A stretch of DNA of 44,061 nucleotides from a virus (taxonomy: Duplodnaviria > Heunggongvirae > Uroviricota > Caudoviricetes), in IMG/VR virus record IMGVR_UViG_646564533_000010, one strand, 5' to 3'. This document shows, piece after piece, positions 12,001-15,000 of the stretch. How positions within the stretch are numbered: position 1 is the stretch's first letter; every line of letters begins with the position of its first letter. The position numbers were made by a program.

Positions 12001-15000
12001 ATTACAGGCGTTGCTATGGCTATCGCTTTTTTAGTATATGTTATTTGTCGGTGGGGGTAAAAACGTTCGCCGGGATTCACACCAAAGGAGGGAATATGTC
12101 GGATGATATTTCACTGGCAATGGAAGGTGCGCTGGCTGTTATTGCTGTTGTGGGCGTTTACTGCCTGGTTGTGTTTTTGATGGATCGACTAGGGAACTGA
12201 ATTCATTACGATATGGGAATTCCCATATCGGGTAAAAACGGTTTGCGGTAAAGCGAGAGTTAAGTAGAATTGCTGCGGGTGCTTGAGGCTATCTGCCTCG
12301 GGCATGAACACCAACGGCAGATAGAGAAAAGCCCCAGTTAACATTACGCGTCCGGCAAGACGCTTAACATTAATCTGAGGCCATATCTATGACTTGCACA
12401 TGTAGGTTAGCCTCTTACGCGCCGAAAGGCAAGGAGAAGCAGGCTATGAAGCAGCAAAAGGCGATGTTAATCGCCCTGATCGTCATCTGTTTAACCGTCA
12501 TAGTGACGGCACTGGTAACGAGGAAAGACCTCTGCGAGGTACGAATCCGAACCGGCCAGACGGAGGTCGCTGTCTTCACAGCTTACGAACCTGAGGAGTA
12601 AGAGACCAGGCGGGGGAGAAATCCCTCGCCACCTCTCATGTGTCAGGCATCCTTAACGCACCCGCACTAAACCCGCTTCGGCGGGTTTTTTGTTGCGCGC
12701 TGAATGCGCAGGGTGAAAAATAACCATATATTTGATTATATACACAACAAAAAAATAAAAGTCATTGTACCTGCACATTAAATAATCAAATATACGGCGT
12801 GAAATAAATATTTTTCAGATTAATATTTTTGTCTCTATGTGGATATAACCGTTTGTACTTATAAACTCGGAGGCATCGTGGAAAAAATAAAGAAACTATT
12901 TAGTTGCAAATACGCAGTCATACGTCGTGATGACCTGTCAGTTATAGTCGAAATGGATTACTTCCCTGAAACCCCAAAATCAATGATGTATCGTAATGGT
13001 CGAAAGGCAATTTTTTTACCGATGAGGGTAAGTGACATTATGGGAAATGATAAACTGCTGGATGAATTGCGAGTCAGAGCATCCTGTTAGTATTGGCATT
13101 AATTCTGGTATACTACATAATGGGCTGAACACCCATTCTACTGCGCCAGCGGAGAACTACGATGGCGCATATACAACTGGTCAAACAAACCTCTTCCGGA
13201 TTACTTCTCCCGGCGACGCCGGAGAGTTGCGATTTTTTGCATCAAATCAAAATAGGTGAGTGGATACACGCAGACTTTAAGCGTGTGCGTAACTACGCAT
13301 TCCACAAGCGTTTTTTCAAACTCCTGCAACTGGGATTCGATTACTGGACTCCGAACGGTGGGGCGATCACGCCTCGCGAACGAGAACTGGTGTCCGGTTT
13401 CGTTGATTTCCTGTGCGAATCAGTAGGTCGGGAACATACGCCAGCCCTGAGTGATGCCGCAGAGCAATACCTTAACACCGTTACGACTTGCAGAACCCGG
13501 GATACGGCCTTACTCAAGTCCTTTGACGCTTTTCGCGAATGGGTAACCATTCAGGCCGGATTTTACACCGAACATTTTTATCCGGACGGTAGTCGTGGGC
13601 GCAGGGCAAAATCTATCGCATTTGCGAACATGGACGAAACCGAGTTTCAGCAGGTTTATAAATCTGTACTGAATGTGCTGTGGAACTGGATCCTGTTCCG
13701 TAAATTTTCCTCTCCGGAGGAAGTCGAAAATGTGGCCGCGCAGTTACTGGAGTTTGCGTAATGGTGGATTTACGTAAAGCGGCGCGGGGGCAGATGTGCA
13801 CAGTCAGAATTCCTGGCTACTGCAATCACAATCCCGAAACTTCTGTGCTGGCGCATTACAGGCTGGCGGGGACGTGCGGAACAGCGACAAAACCACACGA
13901 TATGCAGGCGGCGATTGCCTGTAACTCATGCCACGATTTAATCGACGGGAGAGTAAAAACCAGCGATTACACCAAAGAAGAATTGCGCCTGATGCATGCA
14001 GAAGGTGTTTTTCGCACACAAGAGATCTGGAGAAAGGACGGTTATTTATGATTTACCCAACGAACACAGGAAAAAGCGGAGAGCACCTTCGTCTCACCAC
14101 GCTGGAAAGTGTCTGGATTCAGGGGAAACTACGTATGTGGGGGCGCTGGTCGTATATTGGCGGCGGTAAGACGGGAAATATGTTCAACCAGTTGCTGACC
14201 TCTAAAAAGCTGACAAAAACGGCAATTAACGAGGCGCTCCGGAGGATGAAAAAAGCAGGTCTGGACAAACCTAAACTTGAGGCTTTTTTGCGGGATATGA
14301 TCAACGGCAAGCAAAAAAGCTGGCTGGTGCATTGTACCGATTCAGAGGCGTTAATAATCGACAGGGTTATTGGTGAAGTACTGGCAGGTTATCCCGGGCT
14401 GCTCAATGTTCTGAGTCAGCGTTATGTGGGGCGGGGGATGACTAAGCGCAAAATGGCTGAACTGCTGAATGATGCACATCCGGAATGGAGTTTAAGAACC
14501 TGTGAAAGACGCATTGAGCATTGGCTAAAGGTGGCAGAATTTATTTTGTACAAACCAATGGTTATGGCTTTTGGTATAGAGAAAAAAGTTATTGCTTTTT
14601 GACGTAAAAACTGCTTCAATTCCGGTAAGCTTCGCAAAGCTGTATCGCGAGGCGAACCAAACGCATGAACTTTACCAGAACCCGCCATTGAGCGGGTTTT
14701 TTATTGCGGAATTAATTACGGACCGTTATTATTCTGCTCCCGGCCCTTTAGCTCAGTGGTGAGAGCGAGCGACTCATAATCGCCAGGTCGCTGGTTCAAA
14801 TCCAGCAAGGGCCACCATATCACATACCGCCATTAGCTCATCGGGACAGAGCGCCAGCCTTCGAAGCTGGCTGTGCGGGGTTCAAGTCCCCGATGGCGGT
14901 CCATTATCAGCATCATGCGTTGTTAGCTCAGCCGGACAGAGCAATTGCCTTCTAAGCAATCGGTCACTGGTTCGAATCCAGTACAACGCGCCACACCACA

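What the first reader, a model, noticed from the sequence alone, without database searches (positions are those of the whole stretch)
12243..12700. Complete hok/gef-family type I toxin locus with fold-back mRNA architecture
A 51-aa Hok/Gef-type toxin (12446-12601) lies within a longer mok-like frame (12389). The 5' leader element tgcgggtgc (12274-12282) is exactly complementary to gcacccgca at 12658-12666 just upstream of the terminator, consistent with the 5'-3' fold-back pairing that keeps full-length hok mRNA inert. A TTGCGG-N16-TAGAAT promoter-like pair precedes it. An antisense Sok-type RNA would be expected on the minus strand around 12330-12440 but I could not delimit it by eye.
Basis: partly seen in the sequence, partly recalled or inferred. 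Interest (0 to 1): 0.5.

Follow-up and report, generated by a model that had tools for sequence, protein, structure and literature searches.

The report
Intact prophage hok/mok/sok toxin-antitoxin locus
This is an ordinary, apparently intact copy of the long-known hok/mok/sok RNA-controlled killer-gene cassette in a lambda-like E. coli prophage: the complete version of the truncated hokD (relF) gene of E. coli K-12 and a near twin of the tested hokW-sokW system.

Summary
Window 12243-12692 holds a complete hok/sok-type type I toxin-antitoxin cassette.

- **Toxin:** a 51-aa Hok (Pfam HOK_GEF, 1.2e-23), 100% identical to K-12 HokD.
- **mok:** an in-frame reading frame starting at 12389.
- **Leader:** matches Rfam sok (RF01794) at 108 bits against a cut-off of 59.
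- **Fold-back:** a 12-bp helix with one bulge, 12277-12288 with 12651-12663, pair probability at least 0.97. It is kept in 36 related loci, with U-A to C-G compensation.
- **Terminator:** 12669-12688.
- **Sok RNA:** Its promoter is TTGCCT-17-TAACCT (12432 to 12404, minus strand) and the RNA runs about 12397 to 12327 (71 nt). This comes from a gap-free alignment to the annotated sokW of phage VT2-Sakai, whose matching -10 was mutated experimentally.

The helix extends the other way.

DNA of this kind occurs in 4725 of 5426 complete E. coli genomes, annotated as hokD or Hok/Gef. The one mildly interesting point is a variable patch at the Sok 5' tail that differs between co-resident copies. Novelty: already known. 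Interest: low.

The parts
12243..12270 (+). hok promoter candidate: -35 TTGCGG (12243-12248), 16-nt spacer, -10 TAGAAT (12265-12270)
   Evidence: Read directly. The -10 is kept at a fixed 6-nt distance from the GGG start in all relatives; the -35 is not conserved. It falls below the threshold of the consensus scan. Transcription not tested.
12277..12692 (+). Full-length hok mRNA (about 416 nt), from the inferred start G12277 to the terminator U tract
   Evidence: The Rfam sok model starts at 12277. -10 spacing. Terminator. The 416-nt RNA folds at -172.5 kcal/mol; the slightly longer stretch 12270-12692 has z = -8.
12277..12288 (+). tac element (5' end GGGUGCUUGAGG). Pairs with fbi in the full-length RNA. 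Alternative local partners are 12295-12312 (metastable-type hairpin) or the ucb
   Evidence: Pair probabilities 0.97-1.0 with 12651-12663. Local refolding after 3' truncation. Inverted repeat I2.
12331..12335 (+). ucb / anti-SD (GCCCC) that sequesters the mok Shine-Dalgarno sequence in the closed form
   Evidence: Pairs with 12377-12381, mean probability 0.79 in the full-length fold. Invariant in 36 loci and paired in the RNAalifold consensus (cols 56-61 with 101-107). Element names as in PMC9841398.
12327..12397 (-). Sok antisense RNA (about 71 nt): 15-nt single-stranded 5' tail (12397->12383), long hairpin (12382->12330), UUUU
   Evidence: Coordinates transferred from the annotated sokW misc_RNA of AP000422 through a gap-free alignment. 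Same overlap with the mok start as annotated sokC and sokB in K-12. Fold -28.6 kcal/mol, z = -4.4. Ends are good to a few nt; not mapped experimentally here.
12404..12432 (-). sok promoter: -35 TTGCCT (12432->12427), 17-nt spacer, -10 TAACCT (12409->12404). The start site is 7 nt downstream, at 12397
   Evidence: Read directly. The same -10 is present in hokW (the whole promoter stretch differs from hokW at 1 nt); mutating the hokW -10 (primers YO-421/422) abolished antitoxin activity. R1-type locus has TTGCGC-17-TATCCT at the same place. Below the threshold of the consensus scan.
12377..12380 (+). mok Shine-Dalgarno sequence GAGG, 8 nt before the mok ATG
   Evidence: Invariant in 36 loci. Covered by Sok. 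Mutations in the same GAGG motif of R1 give loss of function (PMC9841398).
12389..12601 (+). mok reading frame (70 codons), in frame with hok and ending at the same stop
   Evidence: ORF list. Same arrangement as annotated mokC (K-12) and mokW (Sp5).
12446..12601 (+). hok toxin gene (51 aa; SD AAGGAG at 12431-12436)
   Evidence: Pfam HOK_GEF 1.2e-23. 51/51 identical to K-12 HokD. 92% identical to HokW. Annotated hokD in RefSeq genomes.
12609..12630 (+). 3'-UTR hairpin GGCGGGGGA-GAAA-UCCCUCGCC. Likely the 3' end protector of the processed (truncated) mRNA
   Evidence: Present in every fold. Conserved with compensatory changes (cols 342-368). Role inferred from the R1 model, where mutations in the last stem-loop of the truncated mRNA destabilise it (PMC9841398).
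12651..12663 (+). fbi element (CCUUAA-C-GCACCC) that pairs with tac; C12657 is bulged
   Evidence: Lies 51-63 nt after the stop codon in almost all related loci.
12669..12692 (+). Rho-independent terminator of the hok mRNA (stem-loop 12669-12688, U run)
   Evidence: Terminator scan. Also present in K-12 hokD, but replaced by other sequence in Sp5 hokW.

Best explanation
Window 12243-12692 is an intact hok/mok/sok type I toxin-antitoxin cassette of the hokD/hokW subgroup. It sits in the nin region of a lambdoid prophage, between the replication genes and the Q-like antiterminator and tRNA genes.

**What the sequence shows:** all the parts are present, in the canonical order and spacing.

**Mechanism, inferred by homology with plasmid R1 hok/sok and Sp5 hokW-sokW:**
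1. A stable mRNA of about 416 nt is made from a weak promoter.
2. Its 5' end (tac, 12277-12288) pairs with fbi (12651-12663) just before the terminator. In this closed form the mok Shine-Dalgarno sequence (12377-12380) is held by the anti-SD box GCCCC (12331-12335), so the RNA is neither translated nor bound by Sok.
3. Slow 3' exonucleolytic trimming back towards the 12609-12630 hairpin removes fbi. The 5' end then refolds locally and mok can be translated. Hok translation is coupled to it; here mok is the same frame as hok.
4. The unstable 71-nt Sok RNA is made constitutively from the minus strand (12397->12327). It pairs through its 15-nt single-stranded 5' tail with the mok start region, blocks mok and hok translation, and triggers RNase III cleavage.
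5. When Sok supply stops, Hok inserts in the inner membrane and depolarises and kills the cell.

**Likely role in a prophage, the least certain part:** helping lysis and phage release on induction, as shown for hokW-sokW, and/or penalising loss of the element.
For: - **Toxin:** Pfam HOK_GEF 82.9 bits. 100% identical to K-12 HokD. [quoted passage not shown]
- **Leader:** Rfam RF01794, 108.4 bits against a gathering score of 59, full-length model, starting at 12277.
- **Fold-back:** MFE z = -8. tac/fbi pair probabilities 0.97-1.0 and ucb/SD-mok mean 0.79.
- **Conservation of the fold-back:** RNAalifold on 36 loci from Escherichia, Kluyvera, Citrobacter, Pseudocitrobacter, Pantoea and Photorhabdus predicts the same 5'-3' helix. 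Pair 4 is U-A in 23 and C-G in 11. 99.5% of cells are paired, against 21-59% when the partner is slid. The outer six pairs are fully kept in 30 of 36 loci, and all loci keep at least 11 of 12 pairs.
- **Sok:** placed by a gap-free alignment to the annotated sokW. Promoter geometry is the same as the sokW promoter, differing at 1 nt outside the hexamers; its -10 mutation removed antitoxin activity. The Sok fold has a single-stranded tail, a hairpin and a U run.
- **Refolding:** the 5' end refolds into local tac hairpins once fbi is removed.
- **Element definitions** for R1: PMC9841398.
- **Annotation:** hokD or Hok/Gef in 4725 of 5426 E. coli genomes. 'Host killer' or 'phage maintenance protein' in phage records.
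Against: - Nothing here shows transcription, processing, Sok expression or toxicity of this particular copy.
- Both promoters score below the consensus-scan threshold.
- The open tac/ucb conformation is the MFE only for truncation end points 12636-12640, with probability at most 0.33. At other end points a competing local hairpin wins, so the refolding step is only partly reproduced by thermodynamic prediction.
- NCBIfam Hok models score below their curated cut-offs: 48.5 against 73, and 40.2 against 89.
- Chromosomal hok loci tested in the past (hokA, hokB, hokC) did not mediate post-segregational killing (cited).
- Covariation rests on few independent events: mainly one U-A to C-G switch between the Escherichia-type and the Photorhabdus/Pantoea-type loci.
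Confidence: 0.9

Rival explanations
1. The cassette is structurally complete but physiologically silent. It would be a hitch-hiking relic, like most chromosomal hok loci, that never produces enough Hok to matter.
For: [quoted passage not shown] K-12 hokA, hokC, hokD and hokE are regarded as inactivated (PMC12214031). The hok promoter here is weak by consensus.
Against: Unlike the K-12 copies, no IS element or rearrangement interrupts this one. K-12 hokC and hokE lack fbi, and K-12 hokD lacks the whole leader, whereas this locus keeps every element. The near-identical hokW-sokW is functional and affects lysis and phage yield. Paired positions stay paired across genera.
Confidence: 0.12
2. The molecular mechanism is the same, but the main role is abortive infection or exclusion of superinfecting phages. 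It would not be lysis assistance or prophage retention.
For: R1 hok/sok on a high-copy plasmid reduced T4 plating by 42% and shrank plaques (cited in PMC8621323). hok genes are enriched about four-fold in prophages, and phages often carry defence genes.
Against: No enrichment of hok next to defence systems was found. The only direct test of a prophage copy showed help with lysis and release. Nothing in the window bears on this.
Confidence: 0.2
3. The 9-nt 5'/3' complementarity is a chance inverted repeat with no structural role.
For: Short inverted repeats are common: eight pairs of at least 9 nt in 1 kb. Three of the nine bases are probably upstream of the transcription start.
Against: P is about 0.004-0.007 for this geometry. 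The helix extends to 12 pairs with probability about 1. It lies at the same distance from the stop codon and pairs in 36 of 36 related loci, with compensatory change. The equivalent GGCGCUU/AAGCGCC pair is in the R1-type locus.
Confidence: 0.01

Closest known systems
hokW-mokW-sokW of Sakai prophage 5 / phage VT2-Sakai (AP000422; Takada et al. 2021, PMC8621323)
   Same: The leader 12275-12324 is identical to the hokW primer sequence. The same long Sok hairpin (with the roughly 18-nt insertion relative to hokC-type loci), the same sok -10 and -35, the same tac and fbi, and an in-frame mok. Hok is 92% identical. Experimentally a type I TA with toxicity, Sok antitoxin, and partial RNase III and Hfq dependence.
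   Different: 8 of the 15 nt of the Sok 5' tail / mok start differ. Four C-terminal Hok residues differ. The terminator after fbi is unrelated. hokW sits near the right end of Sp5, on the strand opposite to the late genes, whereas this copy is in the nin region.
hokD (relF) of the Qin prophage, E. coli K-12
   Same: Hok protein 51/51 identical. DNA about 98% identical from about 12432 through fbi and the terminator. Same downstream neighbourhood, judged from product names only (a small ORF in the position of rem, then a DUF1367 gene in the position of ydfU).
   Different: In K-12 everything upstream of the hok SD (tac, ucb, mok start, Sok and its promoter) is replaced by relBE, so hokD lacks the canonical regulation (PMC12214031). 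The window holds the intact form.
hok/mok/sok (parB) of plasmid R1, the type system
   Same: Same order and spacing of the promoter, tac, ucb, mok SD, the Sok promoter inside the mok leader, hok, the 3' hairpin, fbi directly before the terminator, and the 5'-3' fold-back.
   Different: Hok is only 39% identical. tac/fbi are GGCGCUU/AAGCGCC in R1 and GGGUGCUUGAGG/CCUUAA(C)GCACCC here. The Sok hairpin is longer here. The location is a prophage rather than a conjugative plasmid.
hokC (gef)/mokC/sokC of E. coli
   Same: About 75% DNA identity over the leader and gene. Hok 82% identical. mok is in frame. Sok overlaps the first 9 nt of mok.
   Different: hokC-type loci lack the roughly 18-nt extension of the Sok hairpin. 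The K-12 copy has lost its fbi region next to an IS186 insertion.

Membership tests
[quoted passage not shown] | Small hydrophobic Hok/Gef toxin (about 50 aa, Pfam PF01848) | tested here: met
   82.9 bits against a cut-off of 22, profile 1-42 of 42. 100% identical to K-12 HokD.
[quoted passage not shown] | NCBIfam curated Hok models (NF007279 subfamily, NF007290 HokA equivalog) | tested here: not met
   48.5 against 73 bits and 40.2 against 89 bits. These models are tuned to other Hok subgroups. RefSeq nevertheless names the identical protein HokD.
[quoted passage not shown] | Overlapping mok reading frame with its own SD upstream of hok | tested here: met
   ATG 12389, GAGG 12377-12380, 70 codons in frame with hok. 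GAGG is invariant in 36 loci. Same layout as annotated mokC and mokW.
[quoted passage not shown] | Conserved hok mRNA leader (Rfam RF01794) | tested here: met
   108.4 bits against a gathering score of 59, E = 7.6e-24, model 1-157 of 157. The hit is on the hok (sense) strand, so it does not by itself give Sok's ends.
[quoted passage not shown] | cis-antisense Sok RNA with its own promoter, overlapping the mok translation start | tested here: met
   At the sequence level only. TTGCCT-17-TAACCT at 12432->12404, with the RNA at 12397->12327, mapped from annotated sokW. The same -10 was validated by mutation in sokW. The fold has a tail, a hairpin and a U run. Transcription of this copy was not tested.
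[quoted passage not shown] | tac/fbi 5'-3' fold-back in the full-length mRNA | tested here: met
   Pair probabilities 0.97-1.0. RNAalifold consensus and compensatory U-A/C-G change. At least 11 of 12 pairs in 36 of 36 loci.
[quoted passage not shown] | mok SD sequestered by ucb (anti-SD) in the closed form; tac/ucb stem in the 3'-processed open form | tested here: inconclusive
   The closed form is predicted (mean probability 0.79). The open tac/ucb stem is the MFE only for end points 12636-12640, with probability at most 0.33. The columns are invariant, so there is no covariation evidence.
[quoted passage not shown] | Slow 3' processing of the hok mRNA, short-lived Sok, RNase III cleavage of the duplex, and killing when Sok decays | not testable with these tools
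   Needs RNA half-life and processing experiments. Known for R1 and partly for hokW.

The most novel reading that the evidence does not exclude
The 15-nt Sok 5' tail / mok-start patch (12383-12397) may be a fast-evolving specificity determinant. It would define 'incompatibility alleles', so that several otherwise near-identical hok/sok cassettes on co-resident prophages do not neutralise each other, and each prophage keeps its own private addiction or lysis switch. The window's allele would then be a different specificity type from the tested sokW.

Evidence so far:
- Six tail alleles were found among 11 close loci.
- Co-resident copies differ at 5-8 of 15 nt: three in Shigella flexneri SFBU1023 and two in E. 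coli ECMA0423.
- Cognate tail duplexes are -20 to -24 kcal/mol; non-cognate ones are -3 to -15.
- This patch is one of several local peaks of variation among close relatives, at a level similar to two hairpin-loop regions and the stretch after fbi.
- The exact window allele occurs in 54 of 5426 genomes, mostly once per genome, although the locus class occurs at a median of 2 and up to 10 places per genome.

The remaining 56 nt of Sok are nearly identical between alleles, so cross-reaction is not excluded.
Probability: 0.35. Interest if true: 0.35.

Novelty: already known. Interest (0 to 1): 0.1.

Why it matters
It matters little beyond correct annotation. The record should carry mok, the Sok RNA and the regulatory elements, which RefSeq-style annotation omits: only 'hokD' is annotated in the closest genome.

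The locus is a clean example of what K-12 hokD looked like before relBE replaced its leader. It also shows that one lambdoid prophage can carry two type I antitoxin RNAs, a RalA-family match and Sok.

If the Sok-tail alleles really insulate co-resident prophage copies, that would help explain how EHEC-type genomes tolerate up to ten hok/sok cassettes. It would also caution against extrapolating sokW results to other copies.

Tried and rejected
- **Consensus promoter scan of 12100-12800:** no promoter on either strand. Both hok and sok promoters are below its 9-of-12 threshold, so they were placed by homology instead.
- **NCBIfam:** only sub-threshold Hok hits.
- **First search for hokW:** I looked in the early/nin region of VT2-Sakai (8000-30000 and 1-8000) and found nothing. 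It lies near the right prophage end.
- **The search for related loci with a 7-protein Hok alignment:** failed because no stretch was conserved enough. The single-protein query worked.
- **Whole-helix pair counting:** a plain MAFFT alignment puts the outer half of the fbi out of register between loci with and without the bulged C. So only the 6 core pairs were counted formally. The outer 6 pairs were scored with a bulge-tolerant script. Its cross-locus control differs only modestly (11.8 against 11.2 pairs) because diversity is low.
- **Folds of 3'-truncated RNAs:** these only sometimes give the open tac/ucb form.
- **Hairpin presenting the TadA UACG site:** not stable in isolation, z = +0.85.
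- **Plasmid hits to the leader only, with no annotated hok (H49-H52, L006):** not pursued.
- **Rejected:** chance complementarity, and a truncated or IS-disrupted relic like K-12 hokC, hokD or hokE.
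Full report
**Observation.** TTGCGG (12243-12248) is separated by 16 nt from TAGAAT (12265-12270). The 51-codon ORF is 12446-12601, and a longer ATG frame starts at 12389. A G+C-rich stem-loop followed by a T run lies at 12669-12688. An exact complement of at least 9 nt with this geometry is found at 0.4% of random positions of the window and in 0.7% of shuffles. The stretch 12270-12692 folds at -178.3 kcal/mol, 8 standard deviations below dinucleotide shuffles.

**What the parts are.**
- The ORF product matches Pfam HOK_GEF over the whole profile (82.9 bits against a cut-off of 22). 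It is 51/51 identical to HokD (RelF) of E. coli K-12 and 92% identical to HokW.
- The leader 12277-12451 matches the Rfam family 'sok' (RF01794) end to end, at 108.4 bits against a gathering score of 59. The hit is on the hok strand, so the model describes the hok leader and does not delimit Sok.
- The mok frame (12389-12601) is in frame with hok and shares its stop. The annotated mokC of K-12 and mokW of phage VT2-Sakai are arranged the same way. Its GAGG Shine-Dalgarno sequence (12377-12380) is invariant in 36 related loci.

**The fold-back.** In the full-length RNA (12277-12692), nucleotides 12277-12288 pair with 12651-12663. That is twelve pairs with C12657 bulged, each with probability 0.97-1.0. 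The -10 hexamer sits exactly 6 nt before the GGG in every relative examined, while the three bases before GGG and their supposed partners after GCACCC are not kept complementary. The transcript therefore most likely starts at G12277.

I collected 53 loci encoding relatives of this Hok from one genome per species. I aligned 36 distinct complete loci from Escherichia, Shigella, Kluyvera, Citrobacter, Pseudocitrobacter, Pantoea and Photorhabdus without reference to structure.
- RNAalifold predicts the same 5'-3' helix (columns 1-6 with 403-408). Its fourth pair is U-A in 23 sequences and C-G in 11, with one U-G and one mismatch.
- 99.5% of cells are paired, against 21-59% when the 3' partner is slid by 1-3 columns. 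No shuffle out of 500 reaches the observed pairing.
- The fbi lies 51-63 nt after the stop codon almost everywhere.
- The covariation rests on few independent events, so it is supportive rather than overwhelming. Loci known to be disrupted by IS186 (K-12 hokC and hokE) are the ones that lack the fbi.

**Other named elements of the R1 model** (definitions from PMC9841398).
- *Closed form.* In the full-length fold the mok SD is paired with the invariant GCCCC box 12331-12335, which is the ucb or anti-SD (mean probability 0.79).
- *After fbi is removed.* The 5' end refolds locally. One option is a hairpin with 12295-12312, the counterpart of the metastable nascent-transcript structure. The other is pairing with the ucb to give the open tac/ucb stem. 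The open form is the MFE only for 3' ends at 12636-12640, with probability at most 0.33, so this step is only partly reproduced in silico.
- *3' end protection.* The conserved 3'-UTR hairpin 12609-12630 is the natural 3' end protector of a processed RNA.

**The antisense RNA.** Phage VT2-Sakai (AP000422) annotates hokW, mokW and a 71-nt sokW misc_RNA. The window aligns to that locus without gaps from about 12237 to 12666. This puts Sok at 12397->12327 on the minus strand.
- Seven nt upstream of 12397 lies TAACCT (12409->12404), and 17 nt further lies TTGCCT (12432->12427).
- Takada et al. showed that HokW is toxic. They also showed that sokW expressed from its own promoter neutralises it, and that mutating this -10 (primers YO-421/422) abolishes protection. 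The window has the same -10 hexamer, and the promoter stretch differs from hokW at 1 nt.
- The R1-type locus has TTGCGC-17-TATCCT at the equivalent place.
- The annotated sokC and sokB of K-12 overlap the first 9-11 nt of their mok frames in the same way.
- The predicted Sok has a 15-nt single-stranded 5' tail, a long hairpin and UUUU (-28.6 kcal/mol, z = -4.4).

**Relation to known loci.**
- DNA at least 80% identical to 12200-12720 occurs in 4725 of 5426 complete E. coli genomes, at a median of 2 and up to 10 places per genome. It is annotated hokD or Hok/Gef. It also occurs in 79 phage records, mostly Stx-converting and other lambdoid phages.
- The closest genome (strain 2013C-4974, 98.5% over 10 kb) has the same neighbourhood. 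It runs Rac-like kil and a YdaT-family gene, replication genes, a DUF551 gene, a small ORF, hokD, DUF1367, DUF1364 and DUF1133 genes, three tRNAs and lysis genes.
- K-12 hokD matches only from about 12432 to the terminator (about 98%). Upstream of that point K-12 has relE and relB. The window is therefore the intact counterpart of a gene known to have lost its canonical regulation by rearrangement (PMC12214031).
- A recent survey reports that hok genes are about four-fold enriched in prophages, and lists HokD among the previously characterised toxic controls in its toxicity assay (bioRxiv 10.1101/2025.08.07.668861).

**Mechanism and role.** The molecular mechanism given under 'best explanation' is inferred by homology. 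The parts and their pairing potential are shown here; transcription, processing, Sok turnover and killing are not. For the role, the only direct evidence on a prophage copy is that hokW-sokW speeds growth arrest after mitomycin C and doubles Sp5 release. Post-segregational retention and phage exclusion remain open alternatives.

**One feature worth a note.** Among close relatives the locus is about 90% identical overall. One of several local peaks of variation falls on 12381-12402, the Sok 5' tail and the first mok codons; hairpin-loop regions (12307-12315, 12618-12622) and the stretch after fbi vary about as much.
- The window differs from sokW at 8 of 15 tail positions, and from the otherwise 99%-identical strain 2013C-4974 at 4.
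- Co-resident copies in single genomes carry tails differing at 5-8 positions.
- Non-cognate tail duplexes are 6-20 kcal/mol weaker than cognate ones.
- The exact allele of the window is in 54 genomes, mostly once each.

This fits the idea of insulated specificity alleles, but cross-reaction was not tested, and the rest of Sok is nearly identical between alleles.

**Verdict.** Novelty: already known. This is a well-characterised family, a subgroup that has been tested experimentally (hokW-sokW), and a sequence class present in most E. coli genomes. Interest is low.

Noticed in passing
window 12383-12397 (minus-strand Sok 5' tail / mok codons 1-3): Locally variable patch in an otherwise about 90%-identical cassette. 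It differs at 8 of 15 nt from sokW and at 4 of 15 from the 99%-identical strain 2013C-4974. Co-resident copies in one genome carry different tails. The exact allele is in 54 of 5426 E. coli genomes, mostly once each.
   Followed up: partly
window 12209-12230: Perfect 22-bp palindrome CGATATGGGAA/TTCCCATATCG (EcoRI site at the centre), between the stop of a 34-aa ORF and the hok -35. No T run follows on either strand, so it is not a canonical terminator. It is present in strain 2013C-4974 but not upstream of the other hok loci.
   Followed up: partly
window 11977-12060 and 12096-12200 (+): Two small hydrophobic ORFs (27 aa MNWPEAF...VICRWG; 34 aa, annotated as hypothetical in RefSeq) lie directly upstream of the hok cassette. 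Sp5 has a similar MTWPEA... ORF directly upstream of hokW. No family match.
   Followed up: partly
window 12584-12586 (Hok codon 47, TAC within GCUUACGAA): The tyrosine codon sits in the TadA UACG editing motif. K-12 hokD mRNA is reported to be A-to-I edited at about 6%, recoding Tyr to Cys (PMC12214031). A flanking 3-bp stem covaries in the 36-locus alignment, but the isolated hairpin is not stable.
   Followed up: partly
window 1557-1735 (+): Full-length match to the RalA family (antitoxin sRNA of the RalR/RalA type I system), 225 bits. The prophage may therefore carry a second type I antitoxin RNA besides Sok; I did not look for a ralR gene.
   Followed up: no
window 6471-6522 (-), 14742-14990 (+), 15103-15311 (+), 15312-15371 (-): DicF sRNA, three tRNA genes, STnc100 and the anti-GcvB sRNA AgvB. 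This set of prophage-borne RNAs lies downstream of the Q-like region.
   Followed up: no
window ~12237 and 12666; K-12 junction at ~12432: Homology with Sp5 hokW begins about 40 nt before the transcription start and stops right after fbi, and the terminator is unrelated. K-12 hokD homology begins at the hok SD, where relBE abuts. The cassette seems to move or recombine as a unit with sharp boundaries.
   Followed up: partly
window 12724-12797 and 12700-12840: AT-rich spacer downstream of the hok terminator with a 19-nt imperfect inverted repeat (12724-12742 / 12779-12797), ahead of a small ORF in the position of K-12 rem (12839-13090).
   Followed up: no
L006 (plasmid NZ_OY757102.1) and hits H49-H52: Some plasmids match only the hok leader/Sok part (window 12265-12412, about 85%), with no annotated hok gene under or beside the match. 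These may be unannotated or degraded loci.
   Followed up: no
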